A DNA stretch of 64,000 bases from Balanoglossus misakiensis (Eukaryota > Animalia > Hemichordata), in NCBI GenBank assembly GCA_040954595.2, contig CM082592.2:4976735-5040734 (forward strand), in the 5' to 3' direction. Position numbers and translations under genes: made by a program. Positions 91 through 61,500 of this stretch are shown here, one piece after another (the first letter of the stretch is position 1; every line of letters starts with the position of its first letter). Below the pieces are notes generated by a model, which saw only the letters and a program-made list of their open reading frames with translations, had not been told where the DNA came from and did no database searches.

Positions 91-564
91 ATGTCGATAT
101 CCCTAGCAACAGACAGCGAAGACGACTCGGAGAATTCTCTCAACCAGTCGTCTTGGGAGTCCAGCTGTTCAGTCAGCAACAACGCAGATGCAAGCGGTCA
201 GCAGACAAGTGGCGCAAACAGCGACGTGACGAGAGAAGTCAGTGATGACCTGTTGAGGGCGCCAAACAGCTACTACGCTGGCAGGTTGGTGCACAGGGTG
301 TCTCCTGTACACTTCCTCAGCCAGTGCCGGGGAAGGACAGTCGACAATGATAATGATCATGATAATGATGATGATGATGATGGTAATGATGACCTCTCCT
401 CTGTTGGTGACGTCACCGAGGAAAGCGATTCGCAGCGACACGACAGCGGAGAGACGAGAACGTCATCGCGAACCGCCATGGATGTCCTCACCACGCCGTC
501 TGTGGACATTGTATTTGCTGCAGCTATGGTGGGGTTACTCCTCCACGGACCTCTGCGATTCTAA
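91..564 (+). CDS. 3'-terminal exon of an upstream gene: acidic Ser/Asp-rich low-complexity region ending in a hydrophobic segment (candidate tail-anchored protein), function unknown
   Basis: Pyrimidine-rich acceptor ttattgcAG ending at 90; frame open to TAA at 562-564; poly-Asp from (GAT)n at about 348-390; C-terminus IVFAAAMVGLLLHGPLRF*. The rest of the gene is presumed to lie upstream of the window. Confidence 0.55.
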   Translation: MSISLATDSEDDSENSLNQSSWESSCSVSNNADASGQQTSGANSDVTREVSDDLLRAPNSYYAGRLVHRVSPVHFLSQCRGRTVDNDNDHDNDDDDDGNDDLSSVGDVTEESDSQRHDSGETRTSSRTAMDVLTTPSVDIVFAAAMVGLLLHGPLRF

Positions 565-1564
565 GGCGAGCAGCACAATTTCCTGTATTAATGCGTTGAA
601 CCATTGATCCTGTGTTGAGAAGCTAAGCAAACCACAACAAAATTATTTTAAAATTTTAGGGTGTTTTCTCTTGGATGATCTTATTTTAGGGCTGGTAATA
701 CACAGCATGAAATTGTTGGATGAATTTCTACGGTTAAGGTTGCCTATCCTACTTATTTCAGACGCCATAGTAAATCATTCATATCAACTCTCCCACATTT
801 TTAACATGGGCAGTGTGTATAATATTCCAAATACTAACCTTTGAGTTAACAGCCTAACAAGAATTTTAATCATAGATTTTTTTTACCAAAATCAAAATTT
901 GAATGTTTATCTCAGCAATGATTGAGCATGTTCCCACTTTTACTTTGACAGAATAACAGTTTCACACTTGTCAATCCTGCGAAGATATGAACAAAACTGA
1001 GATTATAGTGTCCATGGAGTAGTTTTAAGGGACGTAATCTGTTTGCGCATAATCACTGCCAGATGAATTATTTGTGAACTGCAATAATCAGTACAGAATA
1101 TATATGCATTATGTCATAATTTACCAACATTTACATTGATATCATATTTATCATCTATACTGCCATCGCAATGCTACTGTTTTAGACTTGAAATTATTAA
1201 AAAAGATCCATTGACTCAGAATGACTTGTTGTAGAAGACATGTACTACGGTACAATACATGTATGTTGAACAAAAGACAGTTGACACATCAATGTGTGTG
1301 TGTGCATGCGAGAACCTAACTTTTAATGTGTACAAACATCCTCGAAAAATAAACGCAACCAAATCAGCAAAACAAGCACCGGATAAACATGACTGCGTAT
1401 GTTCTACCCTAGTCGCACGAGGCGCATTTGTAGAACGCGCGTGCGTTGTGCGCGTCCGATTTGCGAACGTCTCGATGGTAACTCTCCGCGTGTCCATCCG
1501 CCACTGTGGAACGTCTCTACGGTAACTTGTAAACAGAACGTCATCTTCCATCGTGTTTTCAGCC

Positions 1565-3201
1565 ATGGAGGACCCTTTTGTGATACCGCTCTTGTATTTT
1601 GCGGATTTGCCGCCGGCAACGACTTTCTTTACCACGATAACTTACTTGACAATAATGTTCTATCGAAGCAATGGATGCACTTGGCCAAAACGACGCGGTA
1701 AGTGTAAAACTTGCGTTTTTAGAGAGTTTGAAAGCATGTGTCTACACCTTGAAGCAGACACTGCACCTTAGTATTCGTGTTATGATCTCCAGACTATGTT
1801 CACCGTCACTTAACTGTTTATTTCAAAATTATTTCCATTTCAGCGGGCACCAGTAAGAAATCAAAGTGCATGGACTCCAAGAAAGAGCAGAGAGAGTCCA
1901 GCGTCGATCCGCCCCATCTGCCGTTGGTTGGTAAGAATGGTAGGCGTAAAGATGGCAAGATATTGCGACCTTTGTTTGCCGATGCCTTGGGCGACCTGTT
2001 TGGCGCAAACACTCCACTGGAGACGATGATGCAAAGTCTAGTCGAATCCTCGGCAATTTCCAAGCTCCGACCATCAACTGGCGATGTTCTGTACGATCTG
2101 CTGAACGAGGTGACGACTCCACTGGAGCTGGTGATGATGGACCTGGTCGAGTCCTCGGCCATTTCCACCGCCCTCATGCAAATCGAAGTGCGTCCGCCCG
2201 AAGATCAGGACCAGGACAAAGCAGTGTCTTTGAACGACCAAGAAACCGAAGACAAGACTCCGTCTACCGAGTCGACCGATGCCTACCGCGGTCTCCTGGA
2301 GACGGTGGGTCGGGTCACCAGACCCAAGATCCCCGTCGAGAAATCCAAGTCCTGTCCCTACATCGACAAGCCAATCGTCTACTATTACGGTCCACGGCAG
2401 ACGTCCATTCACCGCATCCAATTGACCTGTTCAGCCAAGAACGAACCTTTCAACCAGCCCCTGGACCGTGGATTTGACGTTGACGTTGACGAACCGCTGG
2501 AAGATCGCCGCAAGGCCGTGCACGACCGACCTGTCACTCGTCGGGCGAATCAGATCACCTGGTCGGATGTCTTCTTAACCCCAATCTATGGCACCGTGGC
2601 GTTTATTGCAATGCTGGTGAGCTATTTCAAACACTTCTTTCCCTTGACAACACAAGTCCGTGTTCGTTCATTCCTGCATGATTTCTACCGTAACGAAATC
2701 TGTCACAAAGGAACCATCTGTTTTAAAATCTAACCATTCGAATCTCTCTTGTCCCCAATGTAGATGACTATGACACTAGTTTTCCTGGTGTATGTACGAC
2801 TGTACGAAGACTTCTTCGACTTTGATGTGAACGTCGCGAATCCTGTTGGCAGTGTCGTGTATTCTGGATGCATCTATTTGATGCTGCAACTGGCATTGAC
2901 TGCGATCACCAACTCTTTCGCCATCAAACTCACTGATTTGGGTACGTATGAAAGTTTAATACATTTGAGATTGCCGTGAGATAAATTTTCTAGTTGTGCT
3001 GATCGTCTGTTATTTCTTTAATATTGTCTGATCGGTGGTATTCGTTCATTTCCCAACAGAAAACCACCGTGTACAGAGTGGATATGAAACATCTCTTCGC
3101 GTGAAGAAAGTACTTCTGACTCTGCTTGGCATTGTTGCCCCAGTGCTGTACGTCATCGTCAAAATTCTGATCTTCAGGTATAACTAATTATCATTACTGC
3201 T

Positions 3202-3253
<52 letters not shown>

Positions 3254-3887
3254 CTGACATCTTAATGTATCTCTTTTCTGTCTGTGTGTCTCGTTTACAC
3301 GTTTCATGTGTATGTCCGTTTATTGCTTCCAAACACAGCTGTGAATGCTTTCCACGTGCAATCTTGTAATAAGCATCTTTTTGGTTTTAAAACAGAATGC
3401 TACTGCCTGCGGATTTGACGTCAGAAATTGTGGCTTTCTTGAAACCTTTGCTGGGTGCGACCGCCAACCCGTGTTGGTTCGGCGACCTTGAAGTCGACAC
3501 CTGCCCCGTGGCACCAGACGCTGGCATGGATGAACTCGTTCGACTGGCATCACACGTGATCCTCGTTACCATAGTGACCGTGGTTGATCCTTTCAATACC
3601 AATAGTGGTGTGGGAGATGTCTTGTTTGGGAAGAGGTCAGTTTTGTTGTTTTATCAATGTCAGTAAAGTGTTATGCGTTTAGTAATATATCATTGTACAT
3701 GTATCTCTCCCATGGCCTCGTGTAGTAAGGCGTTGTAGAATTCACCTGAAATTATGTATTGGTATTCTCTGTGCATAATATTTCTTGGCATGTGGACATA
3801 GGAAATGTGTGTGTGTGTCAATCCTCGCTAATGTGTCCCATACTCTATTTCAGATTCCGGAGAGCTGTCGGCGGCAACACTTCTTAA
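1565..3887 (+). CDS. 6-exon, 491-aa membrane protein: novel N-terminal region fused to a divergent anoctamin/TMEM16 TM3-TM6 segment (truncated anoctamin-like)
   Basis: Exons 1565-1697, 1844-2616, 2764-2941, 3060-3177, 3396-3635, 3854-3887. All introns are GT-AG and the frame is continuous (1476 nt). Kozak-like cagccATGG; AATAAA at 4020-4025. The spliced product contains AIKLTDLENHRVQSGYETSLRVK (TMEM16 TM4-TM5 linker pattern LT..ENHRT...YE.SL..K) and DTCPVAPDAGMDELVRLASHVILV (like the C...GC..EL..QL..I pattern before TM6). Confidence 0.72.
3202..3252. repeat. (ATC)n microsatellite in intron 4 of the anoctamin-like gene
   Basis: Uninterrupted ATC run visible in the sequence. Confidence 0.95.
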
Positions 3888-4136
3888 TGCCAAAAGAGAC
3901 GCCCGTAACCACGACAACCATTTCTGAACGTGGCCGAGAGAATAAGCAGTTTCAGTTGTTGTCGTTTCACATTTGTAAATATTTATCGCCCCGGGTGTAT
4001 TCTCTAGGTTCTCTCCTGAAATAAAATTGTTCTTTTTGTTAAATTAAAAAGTGCGTACCACGTGTGTGTCTTTCCATCTACATTGCTATGTATATTCTCC
4101 TATTTGTGTCATGTTAAACGGGTTCATCATCATCGT

Positions 4137-4208
4137 AGCAGAGTGGCGCAGCGGAAGCGTGCTGGGCCCATAACCCAGAGGTCCATGGATCGAAACCATG
4201 CTCTGCTA
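4137..4208 (+). tRNA. tRNA-iMet-CAT: Initiator tRNA-Met (CAT)
   Basis: 72-nt AGCAGAGTGGCGCAGCGGAAGCGTGCTGGGCCCATAACCCAGAGGTCCATGGATCGAAACCATGCTCTGCTA. A1-U72 pair, GGG/CCC anticodon stem and ATCGAAA T-loop, all diagnostic of eukaryotic initiator tRNA. The T-stem CATGG/CCATG is fully paired. Confidence 0.98.
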
Positions 4209-4804: not shown

Positions 4805-7800
4805 TTACATGAAAAGAGCCGCGGCGACGGTGACTAGGAGTTGGAGTATCGTCATTTTCAGGTTCGACGCCGCTGAGAGATATCCTTCGTCGCCCCCATC
4901 GGTGTCTTCTTCCTCCCCGTCGTCTTTTTCCTGCAGGCTGCCGCACCCGAACCAATCCCTGCTGACGCTGCGAGGGTAACCCGGTGCAACTGTCATGGAG
5001 ACGGCGTCGAACTGCCAGTAGTTGTCACCCTTGAAGAAGTACGTGTAACCTAGAAAGAGGGAAAGAGTGCGTGCATGTTAAAACCAGTTCAGTACTAGTG
5101 GCACGGAACGACGTGTAGTCCGTTACAGGTTCAAGTAAAAGCTCGGACATGAACGACGGCTAGATATCGGAATTTTTTTTTTCTGTTCCCTTACCATCGT
5201 CCCATTCAAATGCAGCGTCAATTCCATTAGGGATCCCTTCCCAGTTTTCGGAGATCAACTTGGGATATCCGGGATCGACTTGTTGATTGTACTCGTCATA
5301 CCGCCAGTACTGCTTCCCCTTGAAGAAGTAGGTTTTTCCATTTCGTCCCCAGACGAGAGCGGCATTGATGTTATACGGCAGGCCGAGGTTTCTGAGGTAC
5401 TGTTCACCCGAGCCATCGGGGTAGTTGGCTCTATACTGCATGTATTTAGAATCTACGAGGATAGACAGTGGTGATCAGAATTAGAAACGATAGCATATGA
5501 TGTCGTTTTCATTGACAAAAGTTCAGAACAAAACGCCATAAAAATAAGATGTGACTCAAAATATTTCAATGTCTGGAAATCCTATGCAGTTCTTGATTAA
5601 TCTGTTCAATTCGCCATTTGGTATATAGCGTTAAAAATGTGATGATAGATTTGGGATACTGAACTCACCTTTGAGGAAGATAATTCTGTAGTCGTAACGC
5701 TCGTAGACGGCGTCGATACCGTACGGCAGGTCGTACCAGAAGAGTTTGATATCGTACGGGTATCCGTCCAACGCTTTCCCCTTGGTTCTCATTCTCCAGA
5801 ACACGTCGTCCTGAAACGGTAGAAAAGTAGGCGTAAAACGTAATGATACTGCAAGTCTTCTTCGACGGATTTTACCTTCACGGTGGTAGTGACATAAAAT
5901 TAACCAACCGTGCACTGGCACGCTGCTGACGATAAATATCCAATGTTTCAGCTACTACTGTTTTCAATACTGTGAACACGTACCTTGAAAAAGAACAGCT
6001 CTCCTCTGATTTTACTGACTGCGTCGAATTCGACTGCGCACGGCTCCATGGTTGCTCTGGTTGGATCTGGTTTCATGGTCAGATCCGGCATTTTGGTCGT
6101 TGTCGAAGACGTGTCGACCCGTCGTTCACCTAACGTGAGAAAAGAAAACGACTTGGTCAAACATAGAACGTTTCAGCGTTACACATAACATTCGTTTTAT
6201 TGCTTTTCCAAGTTGCCGCGAAAGTTTTTGAAAGTTTTCATTCTTTCGTTTCATCCTCTATGAGTTAGCAAACGTACCGTAGAGGGTCTGAATGCCAAGC
6301 CTGTCGTCTTCCGGCAGTTCGTAGTCTTCCTGGTAACCTTGGTAATAGGGCGCCATCAATGCCCCGGGGACCGAAGAGTGGCCGAGACCGAGGCTGTGGC
6401 CGAACTCGTGAGCAGCGACTTGTAGGAGATTGATACCTGCAAGACGATGGCACAAAAATAAATCGAAATTCAAGAAAAGCGGTTGAATCCCTCCCAACAT
6501 TCGTCACTATTATCAACGTCGAAATTACAGCATTGTTCTGCCATGACGCCATATCTTGGGGGAAAACTGCTGTTTTTGCTTAAGAAATCCAGAACATGGA
6601 CTCACCTTCATAAGTATTGATTGTAAAAACTTCAGCATCGTCGAAATGAGCGTCGCCTCCGAGGCCCTGGCCGGGGAAATACGCATGCGCCAGAGTACCT
6701 CCTTGGCCGTCGAAGGGAGCCGCGTCGTCATGCCAACCCACCCGAAATTGGATTCTGATGTCAGCCTCCCCCTGGAAGATTTCTGTGAACTCGAGCGGTG
6801 TGACGTCCTGCCAGAAATCGAAGGCTTGGCGAATGGTTGCTCGGGTGTTTTCGGCGTTGAGGTCAGGGGAGAAATTCTCAATTCTGAGACAAGGAGAGAA
6901 GTCCTCGAGTTAATCAATGCAACATTTCATTTCTGGCTCGTTTTCTCCTATACACTTTCTTATATTTATAGTAAAACATTCCATAACAGTACACTATACT
7001 ACTGCTGACGGACAAACATATGTATATGTATAGCCAATATATGTTGTGATGTCAGAGCACGACCTCGTTATTCACAAATGTCACTTTATTTGTAAATTGG
7101 CATAGAATCTGACGTGTGACTACCCAAAGGTCGCGTGTGGCTCTTAACTCAACCCACTTAACTTCGTTGTATGCATCAAGAAAACAACCACACTGTGAAC
7201 TGAAAAGTTTTCTTAACAGGGAAACTTTTTTCAATGCGCATGCTTGATTACTGATGAAATATTAGACCCTTGTTTATGAGCACAATAAGAGAAAATGACT
7301 CGGCAGAACTTTTCAGCTTATATTAACATAGCGCCGTGAAATATTTTTACCTGTAAGTAAGGTCGTTTTTATCCCACTTGGCATTAACTAATGCGTATCT
7401 CTTCCTCCGAGCGCTTTCCGACGTCCCGACGATATCGGGCACACCGCATCGGGGTTTGCTCATCTGGGCCAGCGTGTCGGCGTCAAGTTCGCCCGTCTCG
7501 GGCAGGCCGGCAAATCGCTGCATAGTTCTGACGGCCTCTTCGAATTCTTCTCGCGTCTGCAGCTGTCCAGACTTCAGGTCGGGTGTTGGCAGGTAACCAT
7601 ATTGGCGAAGGAAGTCCTATTTGGAAAACAACGGTGCATGAGATGGGTTAGCGGTTAGGTTGGAAATTAAACAGGCGGGGTTAATAATCCAATCTCTCCA
7701 TCGGACGCAACTTTACCTACACGCGTATGTGCGCTTTGTAGCTAAAACCGTTCCTTTACTAGTATTACATTATTGTAATACAGGTACTGTGATGGGGCCT

Positions 7801-14800: not shown

Positions 14801-17800
14801 TTGGAGAATTGATTGGGGGGGGGGCTGTCAAAAGCGCCGGCCGTGTTACATAGAGAACCAACTGCAATGTGTTGGAATTTTCTGAACTTGCAAAATGAAT
14901 GTATGTGAAGAGGTTCATGGAAATCGGAGCATTCTGTTTACAAAACACCTGCCATCGTTGTGTGTGGCATGATCTAAACGAACATTTTCTGGCGGCTAAT
15001 TTTATACTGGCCGTGATATCGGTTGACAGAAATGCCGACTCTGAGCTGTGCATAGGACGACTGGCAAATGTTCCGTTTTACACAGGGGGGAAAGACACGT
15101 GCGTTCTACGTGTCGCCCATCAATCCACCGTCTGATTCTGTCTGCTTTGTTTGCTTGTGTTTTTGGCTTCCCCCTTTACTACATGCGGGTTTTCTGGATA
15201 AACATTTCTCGAAACAAGCTGTTTATTTGCCTAATCTCGACAGTGACAGTCTTTCCTGTAATCCAATAGTTCTGATGGTTACTTTCGTTCACGGCGACTG
15301 TCTTTGCCCGCGTCAGGTCAGTTTATACGACGCTTTCCGCTTATCCCTAAATCACTTGTGCGGTCACACGTAATTTATTAGTTGGGGACAAATTTAATGG
15401 CTGAAGATGACGTGAACCTGGAAATTTCCTCTTTTTACACAAACACTTTCAATTCGTCTTTCCATTTCGAGTCTTTTTTATTTGTAGATATGAAATTTTG
15501 ATACAAACGAATGATAAGCCTCATTATTGCAAATTTCAACTTAATCAATAAAAAAATTCCAAATAAATTTAAAAGGAGCAGTAACACATGGCGCTTATAT
15601 TTTCTTTCTCGACTCAAAACATAAACGTATTACTGGTTACCCGTCCCGGCAATTATGATTACAATCTTTCGATGTCTGTGCGTTTTTACACGAGGTGACA
15701 GTCCGCCAAGTCAGATGCGAGAATGATGAGAAAGGGTGCTATAGGGCGGAAATAATTAAATTATGTGACATATGCGCGACTTATCCGTGAAAACAAACAT
15801 GCTAGTATAATTTTTACGATGAGGAAAACTGGCGCGCTTGGAGATGACGTACACAGGAAAGAGGGGACAGGGGAAACATGACGTCATAATTTTCTCTGAC
15901 CTTGAACTTGCATGCATTTTAGCTGTATCATTTCCTTATGTCACCACGAATGTATAGACTCGGGACACACTTATTATACCAACGAGAAAATGTTCAGGGG
16001 ATTATACATTGTATATAATACTCTGTGGGACACACTCCAAAGAGACCATATAGATCTGTGCACGTCTATGATCTGTTGCATTGTCTACAACTTTTCGCAG
16101 GGGCATTGTGGTTGGCCCTGGTCAGGCATTAGGAACTGAACGACCGTCACGTAGGAACCAAGAAAATTAGGTGTAACACCCCCTGTAGGCATATAACACC
16201 GGGACATCGCAGTTTCCCCCGCACGATTGGGTCAAGGGTTGTGTGTCTCCGGGTAAATTTGAAAGGGGTAGCAATCCTGGAACGACCAGACAGACAAACG
16301 GAGGCAAATTCAATAGCCCCCCCCCCCCCCACCTCCCGGGTTCGCCCGCGGGGACTAGAAGAGAGGTTCCCAGCAACTCGAATCCATCTTTCATCAGAAA
16401 TTGTGCTTGTTGCATTTCCGGTTCAGGGGTATGGCTATTTCCGGTATACAGTGGCTTATATTTAGCCACGCGGTGAACAATTGACAGGAAACTGGGGCGA
16501 CGTGCGACTTTTCCGCTTGATTTAAGTTCAGTGCGGCATGGTATAGGCATTACACATTTGATAGATAACATAGGGAGCGTGGATTGAACAGAATCGTATT
16601 TTTGTCTGACTTAAATCATTAGGGTCTCATGCTTCTAATGTTTTCGGAAAGCGGTAGTATGTCTTACTAATCACACACCCATACATGGCAGAATGTGCAA
16701 ACGTTACCGTGGCAACCCTACAAAAAACGAAGTCTGCTAGGACGTGCTCGAAACTAGCGTAATTACCTCCAGTTTTCCCCGCAGTTGGCCTGGATTAGTT
16801 AGGTTTATCAGAGCGCCTTAACAGTACAGCTTTATAGATGTATTTTCAACGCTTTCAAAAGAAAACCCTTGACTCCTCGTGAACTTCTCAACACAGTTCT
16901 GGGATCCAAACACCGTCGCAAACCCCTGAGAGATATTTTACCTTTGCCCCAGACGAGAGGACAAAGCCACCGAGGTCTTTCACCACGATGACCAGTGCAG
17001 TGAAGAATTTTTCTTCAACCACACACCAGAGAATAGAAGTGTCGTGGAATCTGAGTTTGTAAAGCATTTAGGTGAAGTGGCATACCGTACATTCACGTCT
17101 GTACAGACATTCTGTTTTCGAGATCTCATTTGAGCACGAGAAAGAAAGAACTCGCTTTAAGTGAGAGTTCTAACAGAAAATATAATTGTTTTAAAATTAA
17201 ATAACACCACCTATCAATCAAATCGATTAGAACTACTTCTGCTGCTCATTTGCATGCTCCGAAAGAATAGCATTAAATGAATGTGGGAAAACTCTGGCTA
17301 TGTTAGATATACTAGTATCCATCCAGCCTTCATTTAGAGCACTATCTCAGAACTCACCAATGTCACATCTTATCAGCCTTTACCATTTAACGCAAAATAA
17401 TAACAGTCTCTTGAGCGCTCAAATTATCAACACCTTGAGTAAATGAGTAAGCAAGAATCCATTAGTTTGCGTATTTCGTACTGTAAGAGGTTTTAAGAAA
17501 TTACAAGCAAAGTCTTTTCACTACACTCGCACCCCGAAGCACGCGCAGGCTCCTTGCAGTCGTTGGCCTGAGGTATCCAAAATGCGTAAGTTGGTAGTAT
17601 TTCAAGAAAATTTGCCTCTGTCACTTTTGACACTAGGGTTAAGTTATATAAGGCGGGACAGCGACAGAAGCGCCAAGCGGCACATTCGTGTTCCCGTTTG
17701 CGGATATTTCGGCAATGCGTTGGGAATTTCAGCGATTTACACTTGCAAGTAGGGATTAAAAAGCTACAAAATTGAGAATACTCACCACTCCTCGTGCAAC

Positions 17801-54730: not shown

Positions 54731-56558
54731 GTGAGTGAGTGAGTGAGTGAGTGAGTGAGTCAATCAAACAATCAATCAACCAACCATTCAAGACATAGCT
54801 ATCTATGCCTGTGCATGTAATGCAAATATTATGTCATTTGACAACAACGAAACTTGTGTACAAGTAAACTTGATGTGCTGTTACATCACTTTCCACCAAC
54901 AGAGCCACAAGAGAGTATGTACCTACGAGAAGCTATCGTGCGAAAACAATTGTGGCGTCAAACTACAGAGACGCTACATGTCCAATCATAGGCTGAACGA
55001 GTGTCCCAAAAGGTCAATCGAGTGCAAATACTGCAAGAAGGACTTTGTGTATGACAACTTACAGGTGAGTTGAGTGTGCGGGGTTTCAGAGGCTATGAAG
55101 CAGGGGCTTAAAATGACTTCAAAGAAAAGTAGTGGTATTCGAAGTTCCAACCTAGCATAGAAGGAATTTCTGTTGTCTTTATTCAGTTCATCCAAAATCA
55201 GGCAAGATTTGTTTCAAGTGTAGCATATCTACTCCATTTTCTACTGATTGTCCGGCAAACCCAGACTGATCACATCTCATTGTGGTTTCTCTCTTTTTCC
55301 CCTTCCCAGAATCATCTCCACGACTGTCCCAGGTATCCGGTGACCTGTCCCAACCGCTGCGACCCCGTGAGAATGGCCAGGGGCGACCTGGAGAAACACC
55401 TCAGGGACCACTGTCCGTCGGCGATCATCTGTTGTCCGTTCAGAGAAAATGGATGCAAACATAAGGTAGGAGAGAGTTATGGTGTCATTTAAGCTGAATG
55501 GGAAATCTAGGGTGAAAGTCTTAGACACAGTATACCGTAGCCAGTACTCTCACTTGGGGTTGTAGTACTTGTAAGTTAAGAGAAGACTTGGAAAATTGCA
55601 AACATCTGTAAATGTATGTTTGGTAGTTACTGAACATTTTTGTTTAATAATTTTCTGATGGAATGCCCAAAATGTCAAACATGGCTGCATTTTGACTTCT
55701 CAAATTAAAATTCCTGACTTTCATCAATAGTAGACACTTACACAGGCATATCATATTAAATATCCAAGTATTATAAGTGGAGGCGGACTACGAAGCCTTT
55801 TCAAATCTAATCACGAATTGCCTAACAGGCCAAAAATTCCTTAGAGAGCACAGGTACGTTAAAACAGTACTTGTTGAAAAATTGCTCTCTCTATAAACCT
55901 GACATTCCTCGCGGTTTTGATTCTACGTCGACAGAGCGCACGCTTCGCCCTCGAGCAGCACCTCAAAGACGACGTGCAGTCGCACCTGCTGATGATGTGC
56001 GAGCTGGCCAAGCGCCAACAGGAGGAGGTGAGCTCGCTGAAGTCGCAGCTGGAGTCCCTCGCCTGCAACACGGACGGCACGCTGCTGTGGAAGATCACGG
56101 GGGTGGCGGCGAAGCTGAACCACCGGTCGCGGAATGGGGAGGAGCAGTTGGAGCTGCGCAGCCCCTGCTTCTTCACCGGCCGCCACGGCTACAAGCTCGC
56201 CCTGACGCTGTTCCCCAACGGCAACGGCAGCGGCGAGGGCACCCACCTGTCGCTTTACCTGAAGGTGCTCCCGGGCGAGTACGACGAGCTCCTGCAGTGG
56301 CCCTTCGCACACCCAGTGGAGTTCTGCCTGGTGGACCAGACGGAGGACTCCAAGCGGAGGAAGCATGTCCGGGAGCGCTTCACGGCCGAGCCGTCCTGGA
56401 AGAACTTCCACCGCCCCAGCAAGGACGTCGTCACGCTGGGCTACGGCTACCCGACTTTCATCTCGCACGACGATCTGAAATCCGTGAAGTACATCAAAGA
56501 CGACTGCATGTTCATAAGAGTGACTGTGGACACGTCAAGAATCGCCCCTCTGATCTAA
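43343..56558 (+). CDS. TRAF4: TNF receptor-associated factor 4 orthologue, 467 aa, 7 exons (RING, TRAF zinc fingers, MATH/TRAF domain)
   Basis: Exons 43343-43485, 49759-49810, 53809-53913, 54332-54493, 54903-55064, 55310-55465, 55935-56558 (1404 nt). The N-terminus MPGHQCKFIEKVGRKYICPFCRLPMRDPVQITTCAHHFCDTCLQEYLSEGIFECPEDRLPLDYAKIYPD closely matches TRAF4. MATH motifs DGTLLWKI, NGNGSGEGTHLSLY, LPGEYDELLQWPF, WKNFHRP and LGYGYPTFISH are present. Confidence 0.96.
50684..51773. mobile_element. 1090-bp non-autonomous DNA transposon, PIF/Harbinger-type (TTA TSD), in TRAF4 intron 2
   Basis: TIRs of about 43 bp, GGGACTGTCCAGAATTTACTTCCAGGGGGGGGCTGGAGGATTT / AAATCCTCCAGCCCCACCCTGGAAGTAAATTCTGGACAGTCCC (one mismatch). 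TTA on both flanks (50681-50683, 51774-51776). No transposase ORF inside. Confidence 0.9.
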
Positions 56559-58525: not shown

Positions 58526-61500
58526 TTACTGATGTCCCGACTCGTCGTCCATGGAATGTTCCTCTTGTTGCGACGTCTGAAGATTTTGCAATTCAAACTT
58601 TTCTGTTTCGCCTTGCATCACACTGGTCGAAACCTCGCCTCCTCGCGATGTCTCGTCCGCAGTTCTTTGGTGCACGCGATCATATTTCCGCACGACGGGT
58701 TCCCCCCGATCAGGTTTCACCAGAGCGGACGCCCTACTGATATCGTTAAATCCTGTAGAAGCGGTTTGGCCCACTCGCCTGCTTCGGAAATCTGAGGGCC
58801 GCAAGATGCTGCAAACAACCATAGTATCAAAACGAAGTTTAGTATTTGTGGTCAGTTTATGATTATCAACGCGAGTCGTGATCTTCAGAGGGAATTGCTG
58901 CAGTTTGCAGCCCCTCCATCTCCCCTGGACGATTTTTGGTTTTGCGGGGAGAGCGCCCTCTCCCCGCAAAACCAAAAATCGTCCAGGGGAGATGGAGGGG
59001 CTGCAAACTGCAGCAACAGAGGGAAGTACTCTGGAGGACAGAATGCAGTACATTGCAAAAAGCCAGTCTACAAGTATCACAGACAACATTTAGGGGAGAG
59101 CCATTTGATTTCGGGGGGGGGGGGAGAATTTGGGTATGTCGGCAATTTTTTCAGCATTTTTTTTCTATTGCTAGTCCTGCTTTTTTCTCAAGGCATTGCA
59201 GAAGACTTTTTTGTCTACCACACCGTCTGCCAGCATTGTTTCCCCAAAGTCCTCCATCCCCAGAGAATATAATTATGGTTCTCCCCTTAGTCATGACTGT
59301 CCAATATGTTTACCGCCACGTCGCAGTCCCCTGTTGTCAGTACAATTTCACAGACCCCCCCCCCCACGTGAATAATGAATATATCATACATACCCCATGA
59401 ACAGCGATTTCGTATTTTCCCGAAAGGTCTTGTTGAACACGACGATCAGAATCGGATTGTAGATGGTTGAGAACTTTGCGAACACAGAGGGCGCCGTCAG
59501 AGATTCCACCGACAGCGGTGGTTGGCCGCCGATGATCATAGCCCATAGTGACAAGGCAGAGTAGGGACTCCAGGCCAACAGAAACGCCACGGTCATCGCG
59601 ATCGCCACCTGTTGAAACAAAAGTAAAGCTGTCATATACCGATAAACACCGGGTTGAATCATAGAAACTGTACAAAGGGTCACATTAATCAAGGTAGACG
59701 CAAGTACATTTAATTTATGATTAGGTAGTTTGTCACTGAGCAAGCCAACGGGTCGTCTCGGTTTGTTATTGAAGTCTAAAATTCGAAGGCACGCAGGCAG
59801 ACAGACAGACAGACGAATGGACGGACTGACAGACAGACAGACAGACAGACAACAGATAAACAGACATACGTCGTTTTCAGCAGCTGCAATAACATTTTAC
59901 TTAACGCCTGAACATGCAGTTACATTTTCTCTGGTCTCATATTGTACCGATAGAGGAGACAAACCTGAATGACCTACTTTTGTTAGTCTCTTCTGTATTT
60001 TGTGTCTAAAATGATATGACTGCTGCGACGAGACTCCAACTTGCTTCCTTTGGACGCTTAACGTGCGAATGATGGCACCGTAACTTGTCACAATAATTGC
60101 CAGTGGAACAAAGAAGATGAACACGAACAAACAAACTGTGTAGCTGAGACCTTCGCTATCGTTGAGTACCCAGTCCAGTGTGCAGAATATACCACAAGGT
60201 TCCGGAACGTACCTGTAAATAATAATTAAATAAAGAATTATAATTAAACAAAGAATTATAATTTAAATTCGATAAAAATGGATTTTTCGGTGTTTTCTTC
60301 AATTTGAGTTTGACGTTGACCAGACCATTTAATCCAATAACAGTCTTTAAAACAACCGTGACGCAAAATCAGATGACAATGTAGTAAACGTTGGTTACTC
60401 ATAGCCTGATCAAAATCCCCTGGGGCAAGTTCATTATAGTAACCTTACAGCCTTGAACACCTACGAACGTACATGAAACGTGGCGTGTACACTCCTATGC
60501 GATTTCAGTTGCCATGGCAAGCGGAGAAGTGACGGCCGCGTGAAAGTGACGCGCCAAAGCGTGCGTCATTCAAAAAATTGGCCGTATATAATTCAAAAAA
60601 TTGAGTACACTTGTGCCCCAGAGGTGATTGCATCACTTACTAGTGGTCCCGCTGAGATTTATGATACACGTCTTCTACTGTCTCTCGACGCGTTTTATCC
60701 TCCGATAAATCAAATGTATGTATTTTGTATTTTTTTACGAGTCGGGTCAACCGTTATAGTATGTGTGTATCTGAAAGTCCGTAACTTAAACCATTCGTCA
60801 TATCCTACCTGTTCCAACCAATCAGCGGTGGAATGGCCCACAGCAATGAATATATCCAGACGAGAACCATGGATATCATTGTGTTTCTGTTATTAACATA
60901 TCTTCCTGTGAAGTTTTATAAAACGTGAACGTCGAGGAGTTAGTAATGTTTGAAATACATTTGTGAATTAGAGCAATTAGAACAACAACATTTTGTCTTT
61001 TTACACTTGGGCTGGTGTCTTTAGGACATTTAGCTGTAAGGCAGCAATATAGATAGCGATGTGTTAGAAATATTTAATCTCACTGTGCGATAGTTATATT
61101 GTATTTGTTGACCATGAGAAGACTTATAAAAATCTCTCCAAGATGATAAACTCGAGGGCCTTGTCTTGTGTTGAATCGCAAAAATATGTATACCAAAAGC
61201 CCCCCCCCCTCCGTGCGGTATACTGTAAAACTCTTTATTTTCGCGAGCAATACATTTTCGCCAAATACGCGAGAGCCAAAATAGCACGAAAATAAAAAGT
61301 CGCGTAAATTTTTTTTGAAGATAACGATGCAGTGAATGAAATAACAGAACGCGAAAATTAATACTCGCGAAACAGTGGCCTCTCTCGATATCGCGAAAAT
61401 TTCAACTCGCGAAAATAAAGTGTTTTACAGTATATTTGCCGACCGACACCGTCGCGTATTTCGAGAAATCCGCCATATTGTGAACCACCGCTGTGCTATA

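What the first reader, a model, noticed from the sequence alone, without database searches (positions are those of the whole stretch)
1565..3887. 'Mini-anoctamin': an intact gene that keeps only the TMEM16 TM3-TM6 groove module, fused to a novel N-terminus
Seen: six exons splice into one uninterrupted 491-aa frame with a Kozak start, a stop and an AATAAA; the ORF track shows these only as unrelated fragments. Exons 3-5 encode four hydrophobic segments and the motif LTDL|ENHRVQSGYETSLRVK. Established: in TMEM16 proteins TM3-TM6 form most of the ion/lipid groove and TM4-TM5 carry the scrambling domain, while the Ca2+ sites need TM6-TM8 acidic residues and dimerisation needs TM10. The introns here (phase 0 within TM3, phase 1 at LT..|E, phase 2 after TM5, phase 2 after TM6) match my recollection of anoctamin intron positions. 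Seen: the gene stops about 11 codons into the next exon, and a tRNA gene and a convergent MMP follow within 1 kb, leaving no local room for TM7-TM10. Inference: exon shuffling produced a Ca2+-site-less, non-canonical membrane protein. It could be a constitutive scramblase module, a regulator of full-length anoctamins, or half of a split anoctamin.
Basis: partly seen in the sequence, partly recalled or inferred. Interest (0 to 1): 0.85.

Follow-up and report, generated by a model that had tools for sequence, protein, structure and literature searches.

The report
Trimmed anoctamin keeping only its core
A six-exon animal gene keeps an open reading frame for only the middle helices of a TMEM16/anoctamin membrane protein, with no calcium-binding half found nearby, and is likely a fast-evolving, non-conducting membrane anchor rather than a working channel or lipid scramblase; its expression is untested.

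Summary
Six GT-AG exons give an open 491-aa frame. Residues 264-394 match real anoctamins fetched here: BLASTP E 2e-9, profile 25.2 bits, 0 of 600 shuffles as high. Two introns fall in the same alignment column and phase as in three intron-bearing anoctamin genes; two more share the phase. TM3-TM5 are shown, TM6 rests on position, and no TM7-TM10 exon was found in the window. Corrections: the N-terminus is only partly new (residues 264-302 are anoctamin, 1-75 likely a worn TM2), and polar pore positions of TM4-TM5 are replaced, which argues against a constitutive scramblase. Divergence is extreme yet the frame is intact, so long decay is unlikely. Best reading: a trimmed, fast-evolving paralogue that likely keeps the TM3-TM5 lipid-binding module as a membrane anchor for a large cytosolic loop, possibly in ciliated cells or sperm. 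No relative, transcript or genome was available, so a longer or split gene and recent death stay open. Earlier scan notes show calcium-site-less full-length anoctamins on other DNA, none truncated like this.

The parts
1401..1600 (.). CpG-rich, promoter-like stretch at the start codon
   Evidence: 21 CpG in 200 nt, o/e 1.56; 3 of 319 bins in the window reach this count
1469..1482 (+). RFX X-box-like site, 96 nt before the ATG (weak lead)
   Evidence: one mismatch to a recalled consensus; 22 such places in the window
1513..1526 (+). second X-box-like site, 52 nt before the ATG; 89% like the first over 19 nt
1565..1697 (+). Exon 1 (aa 1-44): start codon, mildly hydrophobic segment followed by basic residues; likely degenerate TM2
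   Evidence: collinear second HSP, E 0.17; 1 of 1000; 11-16 of 300
1844..2616 (+). Exon 2 (aa 45-302): about 190 residues without relatives, then the anoctamin pre-TM3 stretch and first half of TM3
   Evidence: no homologue; low-confidence model, pLDDT 38; aa 264-302 align to the anoctamin profile
2011..2167 (+). In-frame internal duplication in exon 2 (2011-2062 and 2116-2167, 105 nt apart)
   Evidence: 77% over 52 nt; 12 of 17 codons keep the residue
2764..2941 (+). Exon 3 (aa 303-361): second half of TM3, short outer loop, TM4
   Evidence: 0 of 1000 shuffles against reference L005; both flanking introns in conserved columns
3060..3177 (+). Exon 4 (aa 362-401): TM4-TM5 cytosolic hairpin and TM5
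   Evidence: Pfam PF04547 only hit, E 0.0051, positions 191-222 of 460; z 13 against four references
3396..3635 (+). Exon 5 (aa 401-481): lengthened outer loop with two cysteines and a marginal helix at the TM6 position
   Evidence: weak by sequence; both flanking introns phase 2 as in references
3854..3887 (+). Exon 6: 10 further codons and TAA stop; basic tail
4020..4025 (+). AATAAA poly(A) signal (ATTAAA follows at 4043)
4137..4208 (+). Neighbouring tRNA-Met gene (context)
4805..5077 (-). Frame holding the last exon of the convergent MMP gene (context)
   Evidence: family read from the translation, a sister exon hits Hemopexin

Best explanation
This is an intact, strongly diverged TMEM16 gene copy that keeps TM3-TM5, likely a worn TM2 and TM6, appears trimmed at both ends, and likely works as a calcium-independent, non-conducting membrane anchor for a large cytosolic loop rather than as a pore. 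Shown: ancestry of TM3-TM5, intron positions, open frame, no TM7-TM10 match in the window. Inferred: a duplicate of an ANO1-7-type gene lost its N-terminal domain, TM1 and TM7-TM10, gained a start in front of TM2 and a stop after TM6, and expanded its TM2-TM3 loop by about 190 residues. The best kept part is the TM4-TM5 cytosolic hairpin, which in TMEM16A binds PIP2; three of its tested positions are kept (E564, K567, K579 as E362, R365, K377), so the protein would sit in acidic-lipid membrane patches and present the new loop to partners, possibly in ciliated cells or sperm given two X-box-like sites at the promoter.
For: Homology. Introns. Exon 4 shares only 8-11 of 33 residues with four references that share 18-26 of 33 among themselves, yet a neutral copy stayed intact in 0 of 1000 simulations at 0.1 substitutions per site. 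Codon-choice score 5.5 against -186 +/- 23 for background. CpG-rich start, Kozak context, poly(A) signal. Charges fit the TMEM16 topology: basic after the first segment, before TM3, in the TM4-TM5 loop and in the tail; acidic in the two outer loops. Reading across the alignments, mouse TMEM16A N542, R511, N587 and Y589 stand against Y340, E317, G385 and V387; all four references keep R, N and Y at the last three and N or Q at the first. PMC6704070 (passages): the pore needs both TM3-5 and TM6-8.
Against: No relative found, so selection is inferred from one sequence. Exons 1 and 5 have codon scores below all 17 known exons of the window. Exon 5 is weak by sequence and one aligner set its helix against TM7 instead of TM6. 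Intron 1 matches no reference intron and two reference introns around TM2 are missing, which counts against exon 1 being TM2. R482 and R575 of the PIP2 site are not kept. The window scan would find a TM7 exon as worn as exon 5 in only 34 of 200 trials. The anchor/scaffold role itself has no direct test here.
Confidence: 0.45

Rival explanations
1. The six exons are only part of a functional anoctamin: the missing helices are encoded by further exons (outside the window or too diverged to see) or by a separate partner gene, and the pieces form one channel or scramblase.
For: An acceptor-like TTTTCAG lies two bases before the ATG and an in-frame phase-1 donor exists at 382 in the upstream frame. 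Only 1.56 kb upstream is visible. Exons 1 and 5 themselves escape the window scan, and detection of a TM7 exon at that wear is 34 of 200. No genome is held.
Against: Exon 6 has a clean acceptor, a stop and a poly(A) signal; other nearby acceptors give short frames without a helix. At exon-4-like divergence TM7 would be found in 184-198 of 200 trials and TM1 in 170-191 of 200; none was. None of the 6 best of 55 TM7-sized exon candidates downstream resembles TM7 (best 106 against 715-799 for references). The acceptor-like site is not at a reference intron position.
Confidence: 0.2
2. The protein is a constitutive, calcium-free lipid scramblase or membrane-thinning module: TM3-TM6, alone or as an oligomer, leaves a lipid path open.
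For: The stretch matching the TMEM16F scrambling domain (TMEM16A D554-K588; PMC4477620, passages) is present without gaps as residues 348-382. TM3-5 and TM6-8 may be a structural repeat (PMC5868767, passages), so two copies could in principle pair.
Against: The cleft also needs helices 6 and 7. Polar positions of TM3-TM5 are replaced, and TM5 is more hydrophobic than in the references (2.51 against 1.45 and 1.79).
Confidence: 0.13
3. It is a recently dead or dying remnant: a fast-evolving anoctamin that lost its 3' half not long ago, perhaps when the MMP cluster expanded.
For: No relative or transcript was found; weak codon bias in exons 1 and 5; the internal duplication shows no clear excess of silent changes. 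A neutral copy stays intact in 237-511 of 1000 simulations at 0.01 substitutions per site.
Against: Both ends are finished (CpG-rich start with Kozak ATG, last exon with stop and poly(A) signal); all ten splice dinucleotides are intact; exon 6 shows no trace of the reference post-TM6 exon beyond its phase and basic start.
Confidence: 0.15
4. It regulates full-length anoctamins directly, as a decoy subunit that binds them and damps their trafficking or gating.
For: Truncated ANO5 peptides are thought to be harmful in muscle (PMC5903698, passages); the TM3-TM5 module contacts TM10 of the partner subunit in the TMEM16A model.
Against: TM10 and the N-terminal dimerisation domain are absent, and identity to anoctamins is only about a quarter to a third in the best block.
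Confidence: 0.06
5. The anoctamin likeness is chance.
For: Single exons score below Pfam's cut-off (16.2 against 28 bits); PDB hits for single exons are not significant.
Against: Independent significance of exons 3 and 4, collinearity, and two introns in identical columns and phase.
Confidence: 0.01

Closest known systems
Animal TMEM16 proteins of the ANO1-7 type (mouse TMEM16A PDB 6bgi, TMEM16F 6p46; references L005 and the three genes on G002:C17)
   Same: TM3-TM5 sequence, E-x-HR hairpin, scrambling-domain interval without gaps, intron phases 0,1,2,2 with two exact positions, long cysteine-bearing loop after TM5.
   Different: 491 aa against about 900; no Anoct_dimer domain, TM1 or TM7-TM10; about 190 new residues in the first cytosolic loop; polar pore positions replaced; far more diverged than the references are from one another.
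PIP2-binding regulatory module TM3-5 of TMEM16A (PMC6704070, passages)
   Same: The clearly kept part is this module; E564, K567 and K579 have like residues.
   Different: R482 and R575 are not kept, R451 and K461 cannot be placed, and the paired TM6-8 calcium module is missing.
ANO-L family TC 1.A.17.2 (PMC5868767, passages) and TMEM16M (bioRxiv 10.1101/2022.04.22.489151, parts 1-3 of 4)
   Same: Natural anoctamin relatives that lack parts: ANO-L seems to lack TM10, TMEM16M is small and mostly lacks the dimerisation domain.
   Different: Both keep the TM6-8 calcium residues; none described loses TM7-TM8.
Short ANO7 isoform ANO7-S (PMC9239746, passages) and truncated ANO5 peptides (PMC5903698, passages)
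   Same: Truncated anoctamin products exist.
   Different: They are N-terminal products of full-length genes, not a separate gene for the central helices.

Membership tests
Anoctamin/TMEM16 (PF04547) | Sequence homology to the anoctamin membrane domain | tested here: met
   aa 264-394: BLASTP E 2e-9 to L005, profile 25.2 bits, 0 of 600 shuffles; exon 4 Pfam E 0.0051
Anoctamin/TMEM16 (PF04547) | Score over the Pfam cut-off for the whole protein | not tested
   Only single exons were scanned; best 16.2 bits against a cut-off of 28
Anoctamin/TMEM16 (PF04547) | Ten transmembrane helices | tested here: not met
   Four, at most five hydrophobic segments; no TM1 or TM7-TM10 match in the window
Anoctamin/TMEM16 (PF04547) | Five acidic calcium ligands in TM6-TM8 | tested here: not met
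   Frame ends after the TM6 position; the TM6 ligand cannot be aligned
Anoctamin/TMEM16 (PF04547) | TM10 dimer interface and N-terminal Anoct_dimer domain | tested here: not met
   No match of window ORFs to these parts of L005; no Pfam hit for exons 1-2
Animal ANO1-7-type genes | Shared intron positions around TM3-TM6 | tested here: met
   Introns 2 and 3 in identical columns and phase, intron 4 same phase and two codons later, intron 5 same phase only
Animal ANO1-7-type genes | Shared introns around TM2 | tested here: not met
   Reference introns within and after TM2 are absent; intron 1 has no counterpart
TMEM16 scramblases | Hydrophilic groove lined by TM3-TM7 | tested here: inconclusive
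   Scrambling-domain interval present, polar positions replaced, TM7 absent; read from alignments, no model of the whole protein
TMEM16 scramblases | Lipid scrambling or ion current | not testable with these tools
   needs assay
Expressed, conserved gene | Spliced transcript and orthologues under purifying selection | not testable with these tools
   No RNA holder listed, no genome, no relatives found

The most novel reading that the evidence does not exclude
Evolution has cut a TMEM16 at the seam of its two proposed modules, and the TM3-TM6 piece is active: it scrambles lipids without calcium as an oligomer, or pairs with a separately encoded TM7-TM10 half to form a split anoctamin in cilia or sperm.
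Probability: 0.2. Interest if true: 0.85.

Novelty: new variant of a known kind. Interest (0 to 1): 0.5.

Why it matters
TMEM16 proteins are described as ten-helix dimers whose pore needs a TM3-5 lipid module and a TM6-8 calcium module. A natural gene that keeps the first and drops the second is a ready-made test of whether the module folds and acts alone, and of what the smallest scrambling unit is. Family surveys would miss such genes: the metazoan survey read here set partial-domain proteins aside as unassigned, and single exons fall below the Pfam cut-off. If it is only an anchor or a remnant, it is a clear case of a channel gene being recycled, of moderate interest.

Tried and rejected
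No genome held for the window. No RNA holder listed; this says nothing on expression. Large protein searches with exon 2 (173-552 aa only), exon 4 and exon 5: none at E 1 or 10; the one representative hit for exon 2 (P0001) is a repetitive bacterial adhesin, 28% over 67 aa, rejected. Atlas searches with exons 5 and 4: no usable hit. Metagenome scan with exon 5: 4 loci matching 21-26 residues, taken as chance and not used. Viral scan for the TM7 motif: 0. PDB searches with single exons: ANO10 at E 1.2, others unrelated and not significant. Single-sequence model of exon 2: pLDDT 38, no fold search made. The 504-aa form with donor 2655: rejected, weaker donor and off the conserved column. Internal duplication as a dN/dS clock: too short, uninformative. 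Exon 1 also scores against TM5 (z 3), out of order and taken as hydrophobic noise; this tempers the TM2 reading. Human intron positions from papers: only ANO5 c.1898+1 (phase 2) was found (its place after TM6 is recalled); searches gave nothing more. The first power run used too mild a divergence and was redone calibrated. The whole spliced protein was neither scanned against Pfam nor folded, which leaves its family score and fold open.

Full report
Observation. The sequence holds six exons at 1565-1697, 1844-2616, 2764-2941, 3060-3177, 3396-3635 and 3854-3887. They splice at GT-AG sites into 491 codons and a stop, with junction phases 1, 0, 1, 2, 2. A weaker donor at 2655 would give 504 aa. 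The start has Kozak context; AATAAA lies at 4020; a tRNA-Met follows at 4137-4208 and the last exon of a convergent MMP ends at 4805. Exons are 45-60% GC, introns 35-40%. Earlier notes on this genome call it likely an acorn worm's; I did not test that.

Is it an anoctamin? Scanned one by one, only exon 4 hits Pfam Anoctamin: its only hit, E 0.0051, positions 191-222 of 460, below the cut-off. To test further I fetched real anoctamins with a motif scan: an intronless full-length one in L005 (Pfam E 2e-156; mouse TMEM16A E 2e-180) and three intron-bearing genes on G002:C17 (3 models, TM1 to TM7, no stops). The spliced protein matches L005 at E 2e-9 over residues 297-393, that is TM3-TM5; exon 3 and exon 4 each beat 1000 of 1000 shuffles alone. 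A profile of the four references matches residues 264-394 and scores 25.2 bits; none of 300 full and 300 local shuffles reached it (scores were printed for 151 and 293 of them, best 6.9 and 4.0). Among 2,175 window ORFs, those of exons 3 and 4 rank first and second against L005 and are collinear. The references are four sequences of unplaced animal-type origin, three of them tandem kin, so the profile is shallow.

Introns. All three reference genes have a phase-0 intron inside TM3, phase 1 just before the E-x-HR motif, phase 2 after TM5 and phase 2 after TM6. Window introns 2 and 3 fall in the same alignment columns (190, 259) with the same phase. Intron 4 has the same phase, two codons later (exon 118 against 112 nt). 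Intron 5 shares only the phase (exon 240 against 153 nt). Intron 1 has no counterpart.

What is weak. Exon 5 is not significant against L005 (975 of 1000 shuffles as high), borderline against the four TM6 exons (16 of 300 local; 44 of 1000 end to end), with a shared GDL...CP stretch; one aligner put its helix on TM7. TM6 therefore rests on position and intron phase. The N-terminus is not all new: residues 264-302 are anoctamin, and residues 9-74 form a collinear second match to TM2 and the helix after it (E 0.17; 1 of 1000 end to end; 11-16 of 300 local; bounds chosen after seeing the match). Its hydrophobicity (1.22) equals that of TM2 in L005 (1.24) and basic residues follow it, but the two reference introns there are missing. 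About 190 residues (76-263) have no relative, hold a 35-codon-spaced duplication and give no confident fold.

Is the gene really truncated? No window ORF matches TM1 or TM7-TM10. Simulated TM7 exons as diverged as exon 4 were detected in 184-198 of 200 trials, TM1 in 170-191 of 200, but only 34 and 37 of 200 at the wear of exon 5; TM8 and TM10 had no power test. Of 55 TM7-sized candidate exons downstream, the best scored 106 against 715-799 for references. Exon 6 has a good acceptor, a stop and a poly(A) signal; the start sits in a CpG-rich stretch reached by 3 of 319 bins. An acceptor-like site two bases before the ATG and an in-frame donor at 382 keep upstream exons possible, and only 1.56 kb upstream is visible. 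No genome or RNA run was available.

Alive or dead? Exon 4 shares 8-11 of 33 residues with references that share 18-26 of 33 among themselves. A neutral copy stayed intact in 39 of 1000 simulations at 0.05 and 0 of 1000 at 0.1 substitutions per site without indels, so most of the divergence arose with the frame maintained. Codon choice scores 5.5 against -186 +/- 23 for background and 165 +/- 20 for the window's 17 known exons; the background is AT-rich, so part of this is base composition, and exons 1 and 5 score below all 17. Death within the last 1-2% of divergence is not excluded. No relative was found; these searches are weak for short, diverged queries.

Mechanism. PMC6704070 (passages) describes the TMEM16A pore as a TM3-5 PIP2 module plus a TM6-8 calcium module; PMC4477620 (passages) places the scrambling domain at TM4-TM5 and the cleft at helices 3, 6 and 7 with it; PMC8835819 (passages) gives the ten-helix dimer. 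Counting by hand along the alignments, E564, K567 and K579 of mouse TMEM16A have like residues (E362, R365, K377); R482 and R575 do not. R511, N542, N587 and Y589 stand against E317, Y340, G385 and V387 (that these line the pore is recalled), and TM5 is more hydrophobic than in the references. With no TM7-TM8 ligands, no TM10 and a drier groove face, a pore or scramblase is unlikely; what is best kept is the cytosolic lipid-binding hairpin, next to a large new loop. I therefore read it as a calcium-independent membrane anchor or scaffold (0.45; inferred). Two X-box-like sites 96 and 52 nt before the ATG sit where validated worm sites do (PMC3245922, passages) and hint at ciliated cells or sperm, but 22 such places occur in the window and the two may be one duplication. 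Rivals: part of a longer or split anoctamin (0.2), recent remnant (0.15), constitutive scramblase (0.13), decoy subunit (0.06), chance (0.01).

Comparison and novelty. It descends from the family but fails its defining ten-helix, calcium-site and dimer features, so it is filed as TMEM16-derived, not as a working anoctamin. ANO-L proteins seem to lack TM10 only (PMC5868767, passages). The metazoan survey (bioRxiv 10.1101/2022.04.22.489151, parts 1-3 of 4 read) reports the calcium residues kept in all subfamilies and set partial-domain proteins aside; its supplements could not be seen and may list similar cases. ANO7-S and truncated ANO5 are N-terminal products (passages). PMC2974728 was seen as passages; its supplement was listed, not opened. 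Paper searches (listings only) showed no TM3-TM6-only gene; the library lacks most subscription journals. Earlier scan notes: 24 mention anoctamins, 8 were shown, none truncated like this; none by sequence, by the truncation words or in this genome. Verdict: a real feature, new variant of a known kind, interest 0.5.

Noticed in passing
window 91-564 (+): A 158-codon acidic, low-complexity frame after a good acceptor at 90, ending in a short hydrophobic stretch and a stop, with ATTAAA at 1196 and AATAAA at 1348; likely the last exon of an upstream gene. No Pfam family.
   Followed up: partly
window 4805-40175: A cluster of matrix metalloproteinase genes: two on the minus strand (about 4.8-8.5 kb and 11.9-14.4 kb) and at least three on the plus strand (26-40 kb), read from ORF translations.
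   Followed up: no
window 55133-56558 (+) and 59384-60262 (-): A TRAF-type gene (MATH domain, E 5e-42) and a convergent rhodopsin-family receptor (7tm_1, E 3e-9) whose translation looks opsin-like.
   Followed up: no
window 1995-2170 (exon 2): The duplicated motif and the segment between its copies have a helical, amphipathic pattern (helices in the low-confidence model); a candidate partner-binding surface.
   Followed up: partly
window 58526-59400: Two near-identical stretches in tandem (about 58800-58950 and 58950-59100) seen as repeated ORF text; local duplication or assembly overlap.
   Followed up: no
L005 (G001:C26) and L027-L029 (G002:C17:1456001-1516000): Contigs filed in bacterial genome bins carry animal-type anoctamin genes: one intronless full-length gene and three tandem intron-rich genes, two with a GC-AG intron inside TM3; eukaryotic contamination of those bins.
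   Followed up: partly
window 16703-16716 and 60508-60521: Near-palindromic X-box-like sites closer to the consensus than those at this gene; genes beside them not examined.
   Followed up: no
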